Below, in pieces: positions 42,833-60,431 of a stretch of 60,645 bases of DNA. Under the pieces are notes generated by a model. That model was given only the letters and a program-made list of their open reading frames with translations. It was not told where the DNA came from and ran no database searches. The stretch covers positions 1-60,645 of the forward strand of contig JBGPNZ010000001.1 in assembly GCA_041487795.1 (NCBI GenBank), in the 5' to 3' direction. The stretch comes from Nitrospiraceae bacterium. Lineage in GTDB: Bacteria; Nitrospirota; Nitrospiria; Nitrospirales; Nitrospiraceae. Made by a program: the position numbers and the translations under genes. How positions within the stretch are numbered: position 1 is the stretch's first letter; every line of letters begins with the position of its first letter.

Positions 42833-42908
42833 GCGGCCGTAGCCTAATTGGTAAGGCGCCACCCTTCCAAGGTGGATATTACGGGTTCGAGTCCCGTCGG
42901 CCGCTCCA
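42833..42908 (+). tRNA. tRNA-Gly-UCC: tRNA-Gly (UCC)
   Basis: Acceptor GCGGCCG/CGGCCGC, anticodon loop CTTCCAA, T-arm ACGGG-TTCGAGT-CCCGT, encoded CCA. Confidence 0.9.
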
Positions 42909-42981
42909 GGCGCTGTCAGCCTCAAAATGGCGCAGGGAGTCCTTCCCTGTATGTCTGGTGGAAATCCGGGCGGGCGCTCCA
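42909..42981 (+). other. degenerate tRNA-like element ending in CCA (possible tRNA-Gly pseudogene)
   Basis: Starts right after the previous CCA. Has hairpin CAGGGA-GTCCT-TCCCTG (a 7-nt loop AGTCCTT would carry UCC), a T-like arm CTGG-TGGAAAT-CCGG and a 3' GCGCTCCA. The acceptor pairs for only ~5 bp. Confidence 0.25.
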
Positions 42982-42984
42982 ATA

Positions 42985-43121
42985 TTTGCCGATGCAGTGA
43001 GGTCTAGAGGTTCATCTGCCTGATAAGCAGGAGGAGCGGTTCGATTCCGCAGCGGCGAAAGCCGTTTGGTGTAACGGTAGCACGACTAACAACTCTCTGG
43101 ACGATGTTCTCATCGGCATTA
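42985..43121 (+). ncRNA. Y-RNA-like repeat 6, long form with tRNA-like module (YrlA-like)
   Basis: Same termini as the other repeats (TTTGCCGATGCAGTGAGG ... GATGTTCTCATCGGCATTA). The interior holds an anticodon-arm-like TCTGC-CTGATAA-GCAGG, a T-arm GCGG-TTCGATT-CCGC, a GAAA-capped helix CGGC-GAAA-GCCG and a D-arm-like GGTGTAACGGTAGCAC. Confidence 0.65.
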
Positions 43122-43124
43122 AAC

Positions 43125-43245
43125 CTTGGTCGACGCAGTGATGCAGACGGGTACTTCTAATGCGAAGAGACGGCAAGGCGTGGGAGGTCATTTGACTTTC
43201 CCTAGCTTTGTCTGACCCCCGTAGGCGCGATTCTCGTCGGCCTGA
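43125..43245 (+). ncRNA. Y-RNA-like repeat 7
   Basis: CTTGGTCGACGCAGTGATG..GGGTACTTC ... CGATTCTCGTCGGCCTGA. Helix GGTCGACG/CGTCGGCC (one G.U pair). Confidence 0.6.
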
Positions 43246-43250
43246 TTTAC

Positions 43251-43326
43251 GCGGGCGTGGTGTAGCCTGGTAGCACGCGACGTTCCCAACGTTGAAGCAC
43301 GGGTTCAATTCCCGTCGCCCGCTCCA
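43251..43326 (+). tRNA. tRNA-Gly-CCC: tRNA-Gly (CCC)
   Basis: Acceptor GCGGGCG/CGCCCGC, loop TTCCCAA, T-loop TTCAATT, CCA encoded. Confidence 0.9.
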
Positions 43327-43327
43327 T

Positions 43328-43402
43328 AGGACAGTGGTGAAGTCAGTATCACGGTGGCCTCCAAATCCACAGTCGGGGGTGCAATTCCTCCCTGTCCTGC
43401 CA
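43328..43402 (+). tRNA. tRNA-Trp-CCA: tRNA-Trp (CCA)
   Basis: Acceptor AGGACAG/CTGTCCT, loop CTCCAAA, T-loop TGCAATT (G at position 55), CCA encoded. Confidence 0.85.
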
Positions 43403-43420
43403 TTCTTCTTAGGAGTATTA

Positions 43421-43804
43421 ATGAACACAGTCGAGCGCTTGAACCGTATCCTCTTCACGAAGTACCCGAACCTCAAGATCTCCATCGACGCACCCAAGAA
43501 CCGCGGAGGCAACTGGTGGGTGGATCTGAAGCTGGGCTTGCAGATGGTGACCTATGTCTGGAAGCCGCGCCATGGCTTCGGACTCTGGAAGGACAGCAAC
43601 CCTACTGCCTTCGAAACGAAGCCCGACGAGGTCTATGCGGACATGAACCACGCTGCCGATCGGATCATGGAGCGTCTGACGGGCGGCCGGCGTGAGGTAC
43701 CCAGGCGGGAAAGGACTCATGCCACCTGGCTGATCGGGTCGCTCAAGAGCCAGGAGGAACGGGAGGCGGAACGTCGGAGGGCGCCCCAGCGTCGATCACG
43801 ATAA
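43421..43804 (+). CDS. hypothetical protein (127 aa)
   Basis: ATG 43421 lies after AGGAG. The upstream part of track ORF 43292-43804 is tRNA sequence. Confidence 0.55.
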   Translation: MNTVERLNRILFTKYPNLKISIDAPKNRGGNWWVDLKLGLQMVTYVWKPRHGFGLWKDSNPTAFETKPDEVYADMNHAADRIMERLTGGRREVPRRERTHATWLIGSLKSQEEREAERRRAPQRRSR

Positions 43805-43912
43805 GAGGAACATCCTCGTCTTCCACGAAGACTTCCTCCTCGGGCTCGGGCGCAGGCTTCGAGACCAGGACGGCAATCGATGTTGGAGGCATGAAGTATT
43901 ATACAATTTCTC

Positions 43913-58447: not shown

Positions 58448-58521
58448 CGCCCGAACGCCAGGATGGGCCTTTGACTCATGTCACGGGCGGTGTAAGATAT
58501 GAGTCAGATAAGGAGCCGCTC

Positions 58522-59064
58522 GTGACTTCGGATCTTCTCCCCCTCAGGCTGATCAAGTTCCCCAACGATCTCCTCGTTGCGCGGAACTGGGAAGTGAAGG
58601 AAGTCAATGACGAGGTCAAGGAGAAGGTCGTCCGGATGTTCGAGATCCTGTACCAGTCGGGAAACGGGATCGGACTCGCGGCGCCGCAAGTGGGATGGAA
58701 CGCCCAGCTCTTCATTCTCAACCTTGATCCCGAAAGGAAGAAGAGCGGTGAGATGGTGTTCATCAACCCGAGGATCGTCGAGGTCGGCGGCGACGAAGAG
58801 ATGATGGTGGAAGGGTGTCTGTCCTTCCCCGGCATCTTCGCTTCGATCAGGCGCTACACCGAAGCCACCGTGGTGTCCAAGGATCTCGCGGGGCAGCTCA
58901 GGGACGTGAAGTACCAGGGGCTGGGCGCACAGGCGCTCCAGCACGAGACGGAGCACTGCGAAGGCATGCTCTTCATCGAGAAGATGTCGCCGGCCGACAA
59001 GAAGCTCAACGAGCCCAAGATCAAGCAGCTCGTCGAGAACTACTGGAGGCGCAACAAGAAGTAG
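58522..59064 (+). CDS. def: peptide deformylase
   Basis: GIGLAAPQVG (motif 1), EGCLSFPG (motif 2), HETEHCEG (motif 3). GTG 58522 lies 6 nt after AAGGAG. An alternative ATG at 58444 overlaps the NAMPT stop. Confidence 0.85.
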   Translation: MTSDLLPLRLIKFPNDLLVARNWEVKEVNDEVKEKVVRMFEILYQSGNGIGLAAPQVGWNAQLFILNLDPERKKSGEMVFINPRIVEVGGDEEMMVEGCLSFPGIFASIRRYTEATVVSKDLAGQLRDVKYQGLGAQALQHETEHCEGMLFIEKMSPADKKLNEPKIKQLVENYWRRNKK

Positions 59065-59127
59065 GTCGACCTAAGTATCCTTCCTGGCGTTCGCGCAGTA
59101 ACAGGACGTCAGGTGAGCATAATATAC

Positions 59128-59205
59128 CGCGGGGTGGAGCAGTCTAGTCAGCTCGCTTGGCTCATAACCAAGAGGTCGCAGGTGCGAATCCTGCCCCCGC
59201 TACCA
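59128..59205 (+). tRNA. tRNA-fMet-CAU: initiator-like tRNA-fMet (CAU)
   Basis: 5' CGCGGGGTGGAGCAG as in E. coli tRNA-fMet. C1 is unpaired with U72. Loop CTCATAA, T-arm GCAGG-TGCGAAT-CCTGC, A73, CCA. The anticodon stem lacks the three G-C pairs. Confidence 0.75.
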
Positions 59206-59209
59206 ATCT

Positions 59210-59283
59210 TGCGGACTTAAGGCGTGGGCCTGGCTGGGTCTCATAAGCCTGGCGGGACGGTTCGACTCCGTAGTCCGCTACCA
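59210..59283 (+). tRNA. third CAU-anticodon tRNA (Ile2/Met?), atypical
   Basis: Loop CTCATAA on a wobble-rich stem (TGGGT/GCCTG). T-loop TTCGACT. Position 1-72 would be U.U. CCA encoded. Confidence 0.55.
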
Positions 59284-59361
59284 AGATCTGTTTCCCCCTC
59301 TCTCCAGGGCCAGGCCGCCTTTGAAAGGGTAAAACCTCGAAGCGGTGGCCTGGCTCCTTTT

Positions 59362-59435
59362 GCCCGATTAGCTCAAAGGCAGAGCGTCTCTTTTACACGG
59401 AGATGATGTGGGTTCGAGTCCCTCATCGGGCACCA
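59362..59435 (+). tRNA. tRNA-Val-UAC: tRNA-Val (UAC)
   Basis: Acceptor GCCCGAT/ATCGGGC, loop TTTACAC, T-arm GTGGG-TTCGAGT-CCCTC, CCA. Preceded by a hairpin (CCAGGCCGCC...GGTGGCCTGG). Confidence 0.85.
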
Positions 59436-59473
59436 TTGTTTTCACAATGTCGGCCTGTGTATAATAGGTCGAC

Positions 59474-60346
59474 ATGACGGTCGTGATCTTCCCAGTCACG
59501 GGAGGCGGCGGTGGGGCCACTCCCACTCTTGCAGCCGTCCTGGCGGCTGGCAATACGACGGGCGCCAATGACATCCTCGTGGCGGTTGCCCAGGCCATAG
59601 ACGCCGCTATCGCAGCTGGCACTCTTCAGCTCGGTACTGGGAATGCCGCGATCATCGCGATGGGCAACCCCAACGGCGGTCTGGGGACATTCGAACTCTT
59701 CATCAACCAGGGCGGCGTGGCGCTCCACGGAAGCAATTCCGGGATCCAGTATTCCTCGACCGTGGCGAATCGGGCGCAGATCCGCGAGAACCAGTACGGG
59801 GCCAATGCCGGCATCCCCGGCATCAGCACGTTCAAGTCGCGCGGCCTGACCGTTGGTTCTCTTGCTGCCGTCGTGGACGGCGACTCGATCTTCCGGGCCA
59901 CTGCCGTAGGTGTCTGCGGGGACAACGTCTCCATCCCTCTTTCGGGGTTGATATCGATCACCATTCCGGTGGGAGGATCGGTTCCCGCACAGAACTGGAT
60001 CGCCACCGACTTCGAGGTTCAGCTCGTCCCGCTCGCCGGCCCGATCAACGGGCGTAAGCAGACGTTCAAGGTCGATTCCGAGGGCATCCTCTACGTCCGC
60101 GAGGCGGCCAACAAGATGGCCGGAACCGCGATCCTGGATGGTACGGGAACGGCGGTCGTCCTGAACACCCGGGTCAAGGCGACGACCAAGTTCAACCTGA
60201 CGGTGCAGGATGGCGGTGCCGCCCCGACTGGGTCGGTCTATCAGTCGGCCCGGGTCGTGGGAACGTCCTTCACTATCAAGTCGAACGCCGGGGCCGCTGA
60301 TACTGGCGTTCAGGTCTACTATCAGCTCTGGGAACCGACGGTTTAA
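59474..60346 (+). CDS. hypothetical beta-rich protein (possibly virion-associated)
   Basis: 290-aa ORF. Gly/Ala/Thr/Val-rich. No enzymatic motif. Confidence 0.5.
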   Translation: MTVVIFPVTGGGGGATPTLAAVLAAGNTTGANDILVAVAQAIDAAIAAGTLQLGTGNAAIIAMGNPNGGLGTFELFINQGGVALHGSNSGIQYSSTVANRAQIRENQYGANAGIPGISTFKSRGLTVGSLAAVVDGDSIFRATAVGVCGDNVSIPLSGLISITIPVGGSVPAQNWIATDFEVQLVPLAGPINGRKQTFKVDSEGILYVREAANKMAGTAILDGTGTAVVLNTRVKATTKFNLTVQDGGAAPTGSVYQSARVVGTSFTIKSNAGAADTGVQVYYQLWEPTV

Positions 60347-60357
60347 GCCGGTCTCAT

Positions 60358-60431
60358 CCCCTCCTAGTTCAACGGTAGAATGCCTGTCTCACATACAGGT
60401 GACGTGGGTTCAACTCCCTCGGAGGGGACCA
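60358..60431 (+). tRNA. tRNA-Val-CAC: tRNA-Val (CAC)
   Basis: Acceptor CCCCTCC/GGAGGGG, loop CTCACAT, T-arm GTGGG-TTCAACT-CCCTC, CCA. Confidence 0.85.

What the first reader, a model, noticed from the sequence alone, without database searches (positions are those of the whole stretch)
42833..60431. Array of 39 tRNA genes covering all 20 amino acids plus an initiator, every gene with an encoded CCA
Seen: by manual cloverleaf folding I find these tRNAs. Gly x3 (UCC, CCC, GCC); Ala x3 (GGC, CGC, UGC; all with G3.U70); Ser x4; Thr x3; Val x4; Leu x3; Gln x2; Glu x2; Lys x2. There are also three CAU tRNAs, one of them fMet-like with an unpaired 1-72. Single genes cover Trp, Asp, Phe, Tyr, Ile, His (with G-1), Pro, Cys, Asn and Arg, and there is one unassignable tRNA-like gene. 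All lie on the plus strand, many are separated by only 1-8 nt, and all carry a templated CCA. Small ORFs and auxiliary enzymes are interleaved. Established: large phages can carry big tRNA sets, thought to sustain late translation or to replace host tRNAs cleaved by anticodon nucleases. Inference: a complete amino-acid set, together with an RNA ligase, Ro/Y RNAs and a deformylase, argues for deliberate translational autonomy. No suppressor anticodon (CUA/UCA/UUA) was seen, so there is no evidence for stop-codon recoding.
Basis: seen in the sequence. Interest (0 to 1): 0.7.

Follow-up and report, generated by a model that had tools for sequence, protein, structure and literature searches.

The report
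Large phage tRNA gene array
A 17.6-kb stretch of an uncharacterised large phage carries 38 genuine tRNA genes for all 20 amino acids, beside a Ro protein and seven Y RNAs; such arrays are known in big phages, but 16 of these tRNAs carry a coordinated, unusual change at the corner of the L-shaped fold.

Summary
The array is real. ARAGORN, Rfam and a covariance model built here together support 38 tRNA genes (not 39) at 42833-60431. All lie on the + strand and all encode N73-CCA. They carry 36 different anticodons and cover 20 amino acids plus an initiator-like tRNA. A fourth tRNA-Val was not found. One ARAGORN call ('Ile', 42986-43059) is the tRNA-like module of a Y RNA.

Gene order is conserved in two related metagenomic contigs. 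Against the more distant one, 175 stem pairs changed on both sides and stayed paired, while only 11 broke. This argues for functional tRNAs.

'Translational autonomy' is overstated. About 12% of the phage's own codons have no cognate phage tRNA, including CUC/CUU, all CGN and CCG.

The best reading is a near-complete back-up tRNA pool sitting in an RNA-maintenance and counter-defence island. That island holds Ro plus seven Y RNAs, an Rnl5-type RNA ligase, an NAD-salvage gene pair, NADAR and a deformylase.

Unexpectedly, 16 of the 38 tRNAs have G55 with A18 instead of U55 with G18. The same variant fills tRNA arrays next to Ro, YrlA and RNA-ligase genes in Verrucomicrobiota genomes.

Verdict: a new member of a known kind.

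The parts
42833..42908 (+). tRNA-Gly(UCC), canonical elbow
   Evidence: ARAGORN; Rfam 74.2 bits; R1 82.7 bits
42910..42981 (+). tRNA-like element with a CCA end. Its 'anticodon' loop has 5 nt and its T-loop is UGGAAAU, so it is not decodable.
   Evidence: fold; R1 15.1 bits; same 3' trailer as the tRNAs
43251..43326 (+). tRNA-Gly(CCC)
   Evidence: (62.4 bits)
43328..43402 (+). tRNA-Trp(CCA), A18/G55 elbow (T-loop UGCAAUU)
   Evidence: (52.6 bits)
43913..43986 (+). tRNA-Asp(GUC)
   Evidence: (43.4 bits)
43988..44062 (+). tRNA-Gln(CUG)
   Evidence: 61.5 bits
44993..45066 (+). tRNA-Phe(GAA), T-loop GGCAGUA, A18
   Evidence: Rfam 42.9 bits; missed by ARAGORN; R1 63.4 bits
46011..46085 (+). tRNA-Ala(GGC), G3.U70
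   Evidence: (60 bits)
46143..46217 (+). tRNA-Ala(CGC), G3.U70, T-loop AGCAUAA, A18
   Evidence: Rfam 52.5 bits; ARAGORN only when relaxed
46221..46294 (+). tRNA-Ala(UGC), G3.U70
   Evidence: 65.2 bits
46301..46386 (+). tRNA-Tyr(GUA), long variable arm, T-loop UGCGAGU
   Evidence: ARAGORN; R1 22 bits
47008..47086 (+). tRNA-Gln(UUG), 11-nt D-loop
   Evidence: ARAGORN; R1 42.4 bits
47334..47409 (+). tRNA-Gly(GCC)
   Evidence: 62 bits
47416..47490 (+). tRNA-Ile(GAU)
   Evidence: 54 bits
47495..47570 (+). tRNA-His(GUG), encoded G-1 at 47494, C73, T-loop GGCAGCA, A18
   Evidence: Rfam 38.5 bits; R1 61 bits
48170..48247 (+). tRNA-Pro(GGG)
   Evidence: 52.9 bits
48249..48322 (+). tRNA-Val(GAC)
   Evidence: 60.1 bits
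48635..48708 (+). tRNA-Thr(GGU)
   Evidence: 58.7 bits
48917..48991 (+). tRNA-Thr(UGU), C33, A18/G55 (UGCAAGU)
   Evidence: ARAGORN; R1 68.3 bits (this gene was in the training set)
48998..49101 (+). Unassignable 103-nt tRNA-like gene. It has a 7-bp acceptor stem with A73-CCA, an anticodon loop of 6 or 8 nt (UUUGAACA), a variable arm of about 30 nt and a T-loop UGAAAAU.
   Evidence: fold; R1 17.3 bits
49310..49383 (+). tRNA(CAU), elongator Met or Ile2, T-loop GGCAGAA, A18
   Evidence: Rfam 44.5 bits
49385..49475 (+). tRNA-Ser(CGA)
   Evidence: 34.6 bits
49552..49640 (+). tRNA-Ser(UGA), A18/G55 (UGCAACU)
   Evidence: relaxed ARAGORN; R1 29.8 bits
49663..49753 (+). tRNA-Ser(GGA), T-loop GGCAGCA
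   Evidence: own cloverleaf scan, all stems perfect; R1 18 bits
49943..50033 (+). tRNA-Ser(GCU)
   Evidence: ARAGORN; RF01852 34.7 bits
50993..51067 (+). tRNA-Cys(GCA), A18/G55 (UGCGAAU)
   Evidence: 58.5 bits
51075..51150 (+). tRNA-Thr(CGU), T-loop GGCAGAA, A18
   Evidence: Rfam 51.1 bits
51159..51249 (+). tRNA-Asn(GUU), 91 nt with a 17-nt variable arm; U1-A72 and G73
   Evidence: ARAGORN. This class is common in phages.
51934..52010 (+). tRNA-Arg(UCU), A18/G55 (UGCAAAU)
   Evidence: 59.6 bits
53217..53290 (+). tRNA-Glu(CUC)
   Evidence: 57 bits
53292..53366 (+). tRNA-Glu(UUC), A18/G55 (UGCGACU)
   Evidence: Rfam 42.6 bits
54420..54494 (+). tRNA-Lys(UUU)
   Evidence: 59.3 bits
54496..54571 (+). 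tRNA-Lys(CUU), A18/G55 (UGCAAGU)
   Evidence: 50.8 bits
55652..55728 (+). tRNA-Leu(CAA), 77 nt with a short (5-nt) variable region; A73
   Evidence: (56 bits)
55897..55974 (+). tRNA-Leu(UAA), 78 nt, short variable region, A18/G55 (UGCAAAU)
   Evidence: (36.9 bits)
55989..56073 (+). tRNA-Leu(UAG), long variable arm
   Evidence: 54.7 bits
59128..59205 (+). Initiator-like tRNA(CAU): C1xU72 mismatch, A11-U24, A73, two G-C pairs at the foot of the anticodon stem, T-loop UGCGAAU
   Evidence: (58.2 bits); 90% identical to the tRNA-Met of Rhodobacter phage RcXuper
59210..59283 (+). Atypical tRNA(CAU): U1xU72 and G49xA65 mismatches and a 7-bp anticodon stem. Low confidence.
   Evidence: ARAGORN 59211-59279; R1 22 bits at 59210-59283
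59362..59435 (+). tRNA-Val(UAC)
   Evidence: 65.6 bits
60358..60431 (+). tRNA-Val(CAC), last gene of the array. A minus-strand ORF follows.
   Evidence: 61.3 bits
41152..42771 (+). Ro/TROVE protein (539 aa), immediately upstream of the first tRNA
   Evidence: Pfam TROVE; PDB TROVE proteins; homologues at 58-87% identity
40452..41132 (+). Five short Y-RNA-like hairpins at 40452-40519, 40799-40892, 40898-40971, 40986-41053 and 41062-41132. They share the ends UUGCCGAYG-CAGUGA...GUUCUC-RUCGGCAU.
   Evidence: model R2, built only from Verrucomicrobia YrlA-like RNAs, 14.6-28.4 bits; sequences and folds
42986..43119 (+). YrlA-type Y RNA: a closing Ro-binding stem plus a tRNA-like module (anticodon-like hairpin, T-arm, D-arm). 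ARAGORN miscalls it as Ile-GAU.
   Evidence: fold; R2 29.7 bits, full-length match; no Rfam hit
43127..43243 (+). Seventh Y-RNA-like gene
   Evidence: R2 10 bits; shared end motifs and fold
52234..53211 (+). RNA ligase (N-terminal OB fold plus nucleotidyltransferase, Rnl5/DraRnl/NgrRnl type) inside the array
   Evidence: Pfam PF09414 and PF21189; PDB 5cot and 6vt4; sources name it TIGR02306
58444..59064 (+). Peptide deformylase inside the array
   Evidence: Pfam PF01327; gene call in L002

Best explanation
This is a genuine, conserved tRNA gene cluster of a large, so far uncharacterised phage.

What it holds. 38 co-oriented tRNA genes are interleaved with small ORFs and auxiliary enzymes.

How it most likely works (inferred). 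The genes are probably transcribed rightwards as long precursors. Host RNase P and 3' trimming enzymes would cut out the tRNAs. The encoded CCA removes any need for a CCA-adding step.

What it does (inferred). Host synthetases charge the products, which act as a near-complete second tRNA pool. That pool keeps phage protein synthesis going when the host pool is inadequate, shut off or attacked, for example by anticodon nucleases.

Its setting. The cluster is part of an RNA-maintenance and counter-defence island. The island also holds a Ro protein with seven Y RNAs (RNA quality control), an Rnl5-type RNA ligase (sealing of broken RNA), a Prs-like/NAMPT-like pair (NAD re-synthesis), a NADAR domain protein and a peptide deformylase.

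Shown versus inferred. Shown: gene identity, structure, conservation and neighbours. Inferred: expression, charging, and the purpose as a back-up against tRNA loss.
For: Gene calls. Three independent detectors agree on 38 genes, with none elsewhere in the window. Every gene has complete stems, N73-CCA and the expected identity marks: G3.U70 in all three Ala tRNAs, G-1/C73 in His, and C1xU72 plus A11-U24 in the initiator-like gene.

Conservation. Gene order is the same in two related contigs whose Ro proteins are 87% identical (L450) and 69% identical (L448) to the window's. Across 25 matched tRNAs in L448, 276 stem pairs are unchanged, 175 changed on both sides and stayed paired, 32 changed on one side and stayed paired, and only 11 lost pairing.

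Tertiary pair. Positions 18 and 55 co-vary in the window: 22 tRNAs have G18/U55 and 16 have A18/G55 (Fisher p between 1e-7 and 4.5e-11). The state flips in a coordinated way in 11 of 25 matched tRNAs in L448 and in 3 of 8 in L450.

One set, not two. The two elbow classes share no anticodon; together they form one non-redundant set of 36 anticodons.

Decoding reach. The set reads about 88% of the phage's codons.

Phage identity. The window encodes a gp32-like SSB, UvsX, DnaE, helicases, a primase and a ribonucleotide reductase, all with PHROG matches.

Neighbours. Other phage tRNA arrays also sit next to NAMPT/Prs, RNA ligase, NADAR, TROVE or deformylase genes. Bacterial arrays sit next to TROVE, YrlA, RlaP and Rnl genes.
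Against: No expression, processing or aminoacylation data exist. The promoter and terminator consensus scans are at background level. The host is unknown, so neither host codon usage nor host tRNA-targeting defences could be compared. No polynucleotide kinase/phosphatase partner for the ligase was identified, so a complete tRNA-repair pathway is not shown. About 12% of codons still need host tRNAs, so a total loss of host tRNA would not be survivable with this set alone. Part of the count of 175 stem pairs changed on both sides could reflect gene replacement rather than stepwise compensation.
Confidence: 0.7

Rival explanations
1. Codon-bias compensation only. The tRNAs are kept because the phage uses codons that are rare in its host. 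They top up specific isoacceptors rather than replace the host pool.
For: The set includes tRNAs for codons that are normally rare in GC-rich bacteria: Arg-UCU (AGA/AGG make up 27% of phage Arg codons), Leu-UAA, Leu-CAA and Leu-UAG. It omits the tRNAs for the commonest Leu codons (CUC), Arg codons (CGN) and the common Pro codon CCG, which the host presumably supplies in plenty.
Against: For most amino acids the phage also encodes the tRNA for its most used codon (GCC, GGC, GAC, AAG, AUC, UUC, CAG, ACG and others). Several supplied tRNAs read codons the phage hardly uses: UUA 0.4%, CUA 2% and UUG 4% of Leu codons. A set of 36 anticodons is far more than a top-up needs. The host is unknown, so the key comparison could not be made.
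Confidence: 0.25
2. The contig is not a phage. It is a bacterial chromosomal or mobile-element tRNA array of the kind found next to Ro/YrlA genes in Verrucomicrobiota.
For: Very similar modules (a co-oriented array of A18/G55 tRNAs plus TROVE, YrlA, RlaP or an Rnl-type ligase) lie in bacterial genomes, including the isolate Prosthecobacter fluviatilis. The 60.6-kb contig contains no capsid, portal or terminase gene.
Against: The rest of the contig is a phage-type replication module: gp32-like SSB, UvsX-like recombinase, DnaE, two helicases, a primase and a ribonucleotide reductase, all matching PHROG families. There is also a tail-fibre chaperone domain (K1-lyase_C). No bacterial housekeeping genes were seen. 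Genes are dense, many ORFs are small and unknown, and 7 of 10 ORFs scanned upstream of the array and all 10 scanned at 29.5-39.5 kb match no family.
Confidence: 0.1
3. Many of the genes, especially the 16 with the non-canonical elbow, are not used in translation. They would instead serve as decoys for tRNA-targeting nucleases, as Ro/Y-RNA-like ligands, or as processing punctuation for the transcript.
For: U55 and G18 are almost universal in translating tRNAs. From memory, the non-ribosomal cell-wall tRNA-Gly of staphylococci has UGC in place of T-Psi-C. Three elements in the array are tRNA-shaped but cannot decode (42910-42981, 48998-49101, and the Y RNA at 42986-43119). The array is physically linked to Ro and Y RNAs.
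Against: The G55 tRNAs keep 7-nt anticodon loops, sensible anticodons and identity elements (G-1/C73 in His, G3.U70 in Ala-CGC, initiator marks). They are the only genes in the array for Trp, Tyr, Cys, Arg, Phe, His and the initiator, and they never duplicate an anticodon of the canonical class. In matched genes of related phages the same isoacceptor switches between the two elbow types, so the types appear interchangeable.
Confidence: 0.07
4. Full translational autonomy or genetic-code change, as the first reader proposed in its stronger form.
For: All 20 amino acids and an initiator are covered, and a deformylase is present.
Against: No tRNA is present for CUC/CUU, CGN, CCG/CCA or AUA, which together make up 12% of codons. 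There is no suppressor anticodon. No synthetase, elongation factor or ribosomal protein gene is in the window.
Confidence: 0.03

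Closest known systems
tRNA gene regions of large tailed phages (T5-like phages, Rhodobacter phage RcXuper, Caulobacter giant phages; from memory also mycobacteriophage cluster C such as Bxz1, vibriophage KVP40 and metagenomic 'huge phages')
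   Same: Tens of co-oriented tRNA genes with short spacers are interleaved with small ORFs and RNA or nucleotide enzymes. RcXuper has at least 29 tRNAs, all with an encoded CCA, together with a nucleotidyltransferase, a peptidyl-tRNA hydrolase and a ribonuclease. A long-arm tRNA-Asn occurs in about 290 T5-like genomes. Short-arm tRNA-Leu makes up 67 of 150 Leu genes in the viral loci examined. From memory, Bxz1-type phages also carry a Ro homologue and KVP40 carries an NAD salvage pathway.
   Different: There is no DNA similarity to any GenBank phage beyond a single tRNA-Met. The DnaE protein is only about 27-31% identical to known phage proteins. 42% of the tRNAs carry the A18/G55 elbow, against about 3% of tRNAs in the other viral loci examined. 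Seven Y RNAs flank the Ro gene.
Bacterial tRNA arrays (here: arrays in Verrucomicrobiota and Planctomycetota genomes; from memory: arrays described in cyanobacteria, mycobacteria and Firmicutes)
   Same: They hold many tRNA genes on one strand with 1-10 nt spacers. In the Verrucomicrobiota examples the CCA is encoded, Leu tRNAs are 74-76 nt, most tRNAs have A18/G55 elbows, and neighbours include TROVE, YrlA-like RNA, RlaP or an Rnl-type ligase.
   Different: Those arrays sit among chromosomal genes such as ZnuA, a GNAT acetyltransferase and an AP endonuclease. The window sits in a phage replication context. The window's tRNAs are not close in sequence to them.
Rsr (Ro)-Y RNA RNA-repair operons such as Salmonella rsr-yrlBA-rtcBA (Rfam RF02553 YrlA)
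   Same: A TROVE protein is adjacent to Y RNAs, one of which has a tRNA-like module, and to an RNA ligase.
   Different: The ligase here is an ATP-dependent Rnl5 type, not RtcB. No RtcA or RtcR was seen. The window's Y RNAs do not reach any Rfam score. There are seven Y RNAs rather than one or two, and a 38-gene tRNA array is attached.
T4 Pnkp/Rnl1 tRNA repair, and phage tRNAs that escape anticodon nucleases (from memory: T5 tRNA-Lys against PARIS, T5 tRNA-Tyr against a retron, mycobacteriophage tRNAs)
   Same: An RNA ligase sits next to phage tRNAs, and the phage tRNAs differ structurally from standard ones.
   Different: No polynucleotide kinase/phosphatase was found. Neither the nuclease target nor the host is known. 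Escape from nucleases was not tested.

Membership tests
tRNA gene (each of the 38) | Cloverleaf with a 7-bp acceptor stem, 3-4 bp D stem, 5-bp anticodon stem, 7-nt anticodon loop and 5-bp T stem with a 7-nt loop | tested here: met
   36 of 38 have a fully paired 7-bp acceptor stem. Both exceptions are CAU tRNAs: the initiator-like gene (59128) and the atypical gene at 59210 each have a 1-72 mismatch, and in the register printed (59211) the latter pairs at only 3 of 7 positions. Recovery by ARAGORN, Rfam and model R1. Oddities: C33 in Thr-UGU, and a poor D arm and T stem in CAU 59210.
tRNA gene (each of the 38) | Conserved elbow nucleotides G18, G19, U54, U55, C56 and A58 | tested here: not met
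   G19 and C56 are kept in all genes. 16 of 38 have G55 with A18, five of these also have G54/G58, and one has A54/U58. The changes co-vary, so the tertiary pairs are probably preserved in another form.
tRNA gene (each of the 38) | Structure maintained by compensatory change among homologues | tested here: met
   Window against L448: 175 stem pairs changed on both sides and stayed paired, while 11 lost pairing.
tRNA gene (each of the 38) | Expressed, processed and aminoacylated | not testable with these tools
   Needs tRNA sequencing and charging assays.
Phage tRNA gene cluster | Several co-oriented tRNA genes inside a phage genome | tested here: met
   38 genes on one strand. The context is a phage replication module. 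No structural genes lie on this contig, so phage identity rests on those matches.
Complete (autonomous) decoding set | A tRNA for every sense codon the genome uses | tested here: not met
   About 88% of codons are covered. CUC/CUU, CGN, CCG/CCA and AUA are not.
Stop-codon recoding by suppressor tRNA | A tRNA with anticodon CUA, UCA or UUA | tested here: not met
   None among the 38 genes. The only 'SeC(uca)' call appears at relaxed settings, is badly paired and lies inside the SOD ORF.
Ro-Y RNA module (YrlA class) | A TROVE-domain protein | tested here: met
   Pfam TROVE E=1.8e-7; PDB TROVE proteins E=3e-10; about 2,000 homologues.
Ro-Y RNA module (YrlA class) | An adjacent RNA whose ends pair into a long stem, with a tRNA-like domain, matching the YrlA family | tested here: inconclusive
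   No RF02553 match appeared even at E<=10. However, a model built only from four Verrucomicrobiota YrlA-like RNAs (RF02553 30-39.5 bits) matches 42991-43114 over its full length at 29.7 bits. The module order and the CAGUGAG motif are shared.
Phage tRNA repair system (T4 Pnkp + Rnl type) | An RNA ligase together with an end-healing kinase/phosphatase | tested here: inconclusive
   The ligase is present. No kinase/phosphatase was recognised. There is only a weak dual-specificity phosphatase match on the opposite strand at 51253-51915.

The most novel reading that the evidence does not exclude
The A18/G55 tRNAs, and the rarer elbows with 54:58 = A:U or G:G and 19:56 = U:A or C:G, may define a distinct class of 'elbow-rewired' tRNAs. 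These would travel as arrays on phages and mobile islands of PVC-group bacteria, physically linked to Ro, Y RNA and RNA-ligase genes. Their role would be a translation back-up set invisible to some host factor that reads the canonical elbow, such as a tRNA-directed nuclease, a modification enzyme like TruB or TrmA, or Ro itself. The repeated, coordinated switching between the two elbow states in matched tRNAs of sister phages would then reflect an arms race rather than neutral drift.
Probability: 0.2. Interest if true: 0.8.

Novelty: new member of a known kind. Interest (0 to 1): 0.45.

Why it matters
As a tRNA array it is one more example, though a large and well-conserved one, of how big phages carry their own tRNA pool. 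It corrects the idea of autonomy: the commonest Leu and Arg codons still depend on the host.

Its further value lies in three points.
- It gives a clean natural experiment on the tRNA elbow. 16 tRNAs have A18/G55, and the state flips in matched genes of sister phages. This makes the structural equivalence of G18-U55 and A18-G55 directly testable.
- It links phage tRNA arrays to a Ro, multi-Y-RNA and RNA-ligase module that recurs next to tRNA arrays in Verrucomicrobiota genomes. This suggests both a host lineage and a shared RNA-maintenance function.
- It shows that default ARAGORN misses six of the 38 genes, five of which carry non-canonical GGCAGNA or AGCAUAA T-loops, and mistakes a Y RNA for a tRNA. 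This matters for automated phage annotation.

Tried and rejected
- Fourth tRNA-Val. I searched with relaxed ARAGORN, two custom cloverleaf scans and an unfiltered covariance model. It was not found.
- RNA ligase as an anchor for related arrays. IMG/VR gave one distant locus, and the homologues' contigs (P0007, P0008, P0017) had no comparable array. The Ro protein proved the useful anchor instead.
- Extending the contig. The window is the whole 60,645-bp contig. A look-up of the last ORF failed.
- Y-RNA end motif scans. IMG/VR gave none and JGI metagenomes gave two unrelated hits.
- 'The GGCAGNA T-loop is virus-specific'. Rejected. Most IMG/VR matches to the T-arm-plus-CCA pattern end in the conserved ...CCUCCACCA tail and are most likely tmRNA 3' ends; ARAGORN confirmed a permuted tmRNA in 2 of the 10 loci checked. 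The A18/G55 elbow is abundant in bacterial arrays.
- 'The long-arm tRNA-Asn and short-arm tRNA-Leu are special to this phage'. Rejected.
- Host inference from tRNA similarity. No close matches to the fetched bacterial tRNAs were found.
- Promoter and terminator consensus scans gave no signal above shuffled sequence.
- RlaP or other repair genes upstream of Ro in the window. None was found.
- Literature search and paper reading failed on every attempt. All statements about published work therefore rest on memory and are marked as such.

Full report

ARAGORN at default settings reports 32 tRNA genes. All lie on the + strand between 42833 and 60431, and none lies in the remaining 42.8 kb of the window. 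Rfam's tRNA model reaches its gathering score at 28 places and at 29 in a more permissive scan of 40000-60645.

The two lists differ. Rfam adds five genes that ARAGORN misses: Phe-GAA (44993), Ala-CGC (46143), His-GUG (47495), a CAU tRNA (49310) and Thr-CGU (51075). Relaxed ARAGORN adds Ser-UGA (49552). A simple cloverleaf scan that I wrote adds Ser-GGA (49663), which has perfect stems.

To look for anything further, I built a covariance model (R1) from 26 class I tRNAs of the window and ran it unfiltered over both strands of the whole window. It recovers all 38 genes. It also finds three weak tRNA-like elements (42910-42981, 42988-43060, 49049-49101) and nothing else credible.

The count is therefore 38, not 39.
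- three Ala tRNAs with G3.U70;
- His with an encoded G-1 and C73;
- three CAU tRNAs, one with initiator marks (C1xU72, A11-U24);
- N73-CCA in all 38 genes;
- 13 spacers of 8 nt or less;
- no CUA, UCA or UUA anticodon.

The weakest calls are the second CAU of the tandem pair (59210-59283; mismatches at 1-72 and 49-65; 22 bits), Tyr (22 bits) and Ser-GGA (18 bits on a class I model).

**2. Are they functional genes?**

The phage has no DNA relatives in GenBank phages beyond a single tRNA-Met. Using the Ro protein as an anchor, I found two related contigs. L450 has a Ro protein 87% identical to the window's, and L448 has one 69% identical.

Downstream of Ro, both contigs carry the tRNAs in the same order as the window: Gly, Y RNA, Trp, Asp, Gln, Phe, Ala x3, Tyr, Gln, Gly, Ile, His, Pro, Val, Thr, Thr, CAU, Ser x4, Cys, Thr, Asn.

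I compared stem pairs in 25 matched tRNAs of L448:

| Outcome | Stem pairs |
|---|---|
| Identical | 276 |
| Changed on both sides, still paired | 175 |
| Changed on one side, still paired | 32 |
| Lost pairing | 11 |

This is strong comparative evidence that the cloverleaves are under selection. Some of the differences may be gene replacements rather than stepwise compensation.

**3. An unexpected structural feature**

Twenty-two tRNAs have the universal T-loop (U54 U55 C56) and a D-loop with G18 G19. Sixteen have G at position 55:
- ten have UGCRANU;
- five have GGCAGNA;
- one has AGCAUAA.

In these sixteen the D-loop has AG where GG is expected, and thirteen have no GG at all. The association gives Fisher p between 1e-7 and 4.5e-11.

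The two classes never share an anticodon. The G55 class supplies the only genes for Trp, Tyr, Cys, Arg, Phe, His and the initiator. Between sister phages the state flips, with the D-loop and T-loop changing together, in 11 of 25 (L448) and 3 of 8 (L450) matched genes. This points to a covarying tertiary pair (G18-U55 versus A18-G55) rather than decay.

The variant is not peculiar to this phage:
- Among 1,341 non-redundant ARAGORN tRNAs from other viral loci, 43 have G55, and 36 of those lack GG in the D-loop (p = 1e-41).
- A pattern scan of 185,579 species genomes returned at least 119 loci, mostly Verrucomicrobiota and Planctomycetota.
- Those loci are themselves tRNA arrays. They hold 971 tRNAs in 119 stretches of at most 8 kb, and 568 of them have G55 with AG in the D-loop.
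- Some of these bacterial arrays have still more exotic elbows: G55-A56 with the D-loop AGUCUUUA, and G55-G56. These resemble the T-loops of the window's two undecodable tRNA-like elements.

I could not determine whether these bacterial arrays are the housekeeping tRNA genes of those phyla.

Two other oddities turned out to be ordinary for phages. The 91-nt tRNA-Asn with a long variable arm belongs to a class found at least 114 times in IMG/VR and annotated as tRNA-Asn in about 290 T5-like genomes. Leu tRNAs with a short variable region make up 67 of 150 Leu genes in the viral loci examined. Rhodobacter phage RcXuper even has long-arm Lys tRNAs.

**4. Surroundings**

Immediately upstream of the first tRNA lies a 539-aa TROVE (Ro) protein. 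Seven Y-RNA-like genes flank it, five upstream at 40452-41132 and two downstream at 42986-43243. All seven share the ends UUGCCGAYG-CAGUGA...GUUCUC-RUCGGCAU.

One of them (42986-43119) contains a tRNA-like module. This is what ARAGORN mislabels as 'Ile-GAU'. Rfam does not detect these RNAs.

In four Verrucomicrobiota loci, a sub-threshold YrlA match lies between a tRNA array and a TROVE gene. A model (R2) built only from those four RNAs matches the window element over its full length at 29.7 bits. It also picks up the short versions and their counterparts in L448 and L450.

Other genes inside the array:

| Gene | Coordinates |
|---|---|
| Glycosyltransferase | 44371-44991 |
| UVR-motif protein | 45163-45699 |
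| Fe/Mn superoxide dismutase | 46425-46997 |
| Weak dual-specificity phosphatase match (minus strand) | 51253-51915 |
| Rnl5-type RNA ligase | 52234-53211 |
| NADAR protein | 53975-54397 |
| Prs-like protein | 56256-57044 |
| NAMPT-like protein | 57032-58447 |
| Peptide deformylase | 58444-59064 |
| Protein with a tail-fibre chaperone domain (K1-lyase_C) | 59474-60346 |

From memory, the Prs-like/NAMPT-like pair resembles the phage NAD-reconstitution pair called NARP1.

The same kinds of genes accompany tRNA arrays in unrelated phage contigs. In Verrucomicrobiota genomes the arrays are accompanied by TROVE, RlaP, HNH and Rnl genes.

The rest of the contig is a phage-type replication module: DnaE, two helicases, a primase, a ribonucleotide reductase, a UvsX-like recombinase and a gp32-like SSB. 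No structural genes are present. The window is the whole 60,645-bp contig.

**5. What it does**

Under G34:C/U, U34:A/G and C34:G reading rules, the set decodes 88% of 9,569 codons from 27 window genes.

| Codons without a phage tRNA | Share |
|---|---|
| CUC/CUU | 63% of Leu codons |
| All CGN | 73% of Arg codons |
| CCG/CCA | part of Pro codons |
| AUA | rare |

Conversely, three Leu tRNAs are supplied for codons the phage rarely uses (only CUG, 31% of Leu codons and read by wobble, is common). The set is therefore neither an autonomous decoder nor a simple top-up of a few rare codons.

The reading I favour is a near-complete second tRNA pool. It would be co-expressed with RNA quality-control, RNA-repair and NAD-restoring functions, and it would keep translation going when host tRNAs are depleted or cleaved. 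The purpose is inferred from gene content and from what is known of other phages (from memory: host tRNA loss during infection, and phage tRNAs that escape anticodon nucleases). It is not shown here. The promoter and terminator scans were uninformative.

**6. Comparison and novelty**

Large tRNA clusters are a known property of big phages. RcXuper, examined here, has at least 29 tRNAs with encoded CCA and RNA enzymes among them. This array is a new member of that kind, in a phage lineage without cultured relatives.

Three things go beyond the ordinary:
- the high share (42%) of elbow-variant tRNAs;
- their coordinated switching between sister phages;
- the conserved linkage of such arrays to Ro, Y RNA and RNA-ligase genes in phages and in Verrucomicrobiota genomes.

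I could not check whether these points have been published, because the literature tools failed on every attempt.

Noticed in passing
window 40452-41132 and 42986-43243: Seven Y-RNA-like genes flank the TROVE/Ro gene, all with the same conserved stem ends. One (42986-43119) has a tRNA-like module and is miscalled as tRNA-Ile by ARAGORN. None is detected by Rfam.
   Followed up: yes
window 42910-42981 and 48998-49101: Two tRNA-shaped genes have CCA ends but cannot decode normally. One has a 5-nt 'anticodon' loop. The other has a 6- or 8-nt loop and a variable arm of about 30 nt. Their T-loops (UGGAAAU, UGAAAAU) resemble rare elbows seen in Verrucomicrobiota arrays.
   Followed up: partly
window 56256-58447 and 53975-54397: A Prs-like gene and a NAMPT-like gene are adjacent and overlap, and a NADAR-domain gene lies nearby. 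From memory this looks like a phage NAD-reconstitution pair (NARP1-like). Similar pairs sit next to tRNA arrays in L162, L212 and L229.
   Followed up: partly
L253-L371 (genome contigs), e.g. L292, L264, L281, L370: Dense tRNA arrays occur in Verrucomicrobiota and Planctomycetota genomes, with up to 38 tRNAs in 8 kb. In the PVC-group loci nearly all tRNAs have the A18/G55 elbow (arrays from other phyla in the same set hold only a minority); the Verrucomicrobiota ones encode CCA and have 74-76 nt Leu tRNAs. It is unknown whether they are the housekeeping genes.
   Followed up: partly
L292 1807-2211: A near-threshold GOLLD RNA match (143 bits, gathering score 150) lies inside the tRNA array of Prosthecobacter fluviatilis. 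It is followed by a YrlA-like RNA and by TROVE, RlaP and two HNH genes.
   Followed up: no
L004-L123 (IMG/VR), e.g. L007 5298-5687: More than 100 viral contigs carry a tmRNA-type 3' end (...CCUCCACCA) whose T-loop is GGCAGUA instead of UUCGAAU; ARAGORN called a permuted tmRNA in 2 of the 10 loci checked. They could be phage-encoded tmRNAs or attachment sites.
   Followed up: partly
L130/L132 (Rhodobacter phage RcXuper) 11855-11942 and 14350-14437: Both tRNA-Lys genes of this cultured phage are 88 nt long with a long variable arm. This is another class switch in phage tRNAs.
   Followed up: no
window 51159-51249 versus L448 21535-21608: The tRNA-Asn is 91 nt with a long arm in the window but a normal 74 nt in the sister phage, at the same position in the array. 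Its D arm and variable arm resemble those of the window's tRNA-Ser(GCU).
   Followed up: partly
window 603-1532: This ORF matches phage 'polymerase' and reverse-transcriptase PHROG families (phrog_2825, phrog_1423).
   Followed up: no
window 48917-48991: tRNA-Thr(UGU) has C instead of the near-universal U at position 33.
   Followed up: no
window 46425-46997: An Fe/Mn superoxide dismutase gene lies within the tRNA array.
   Followed up: no
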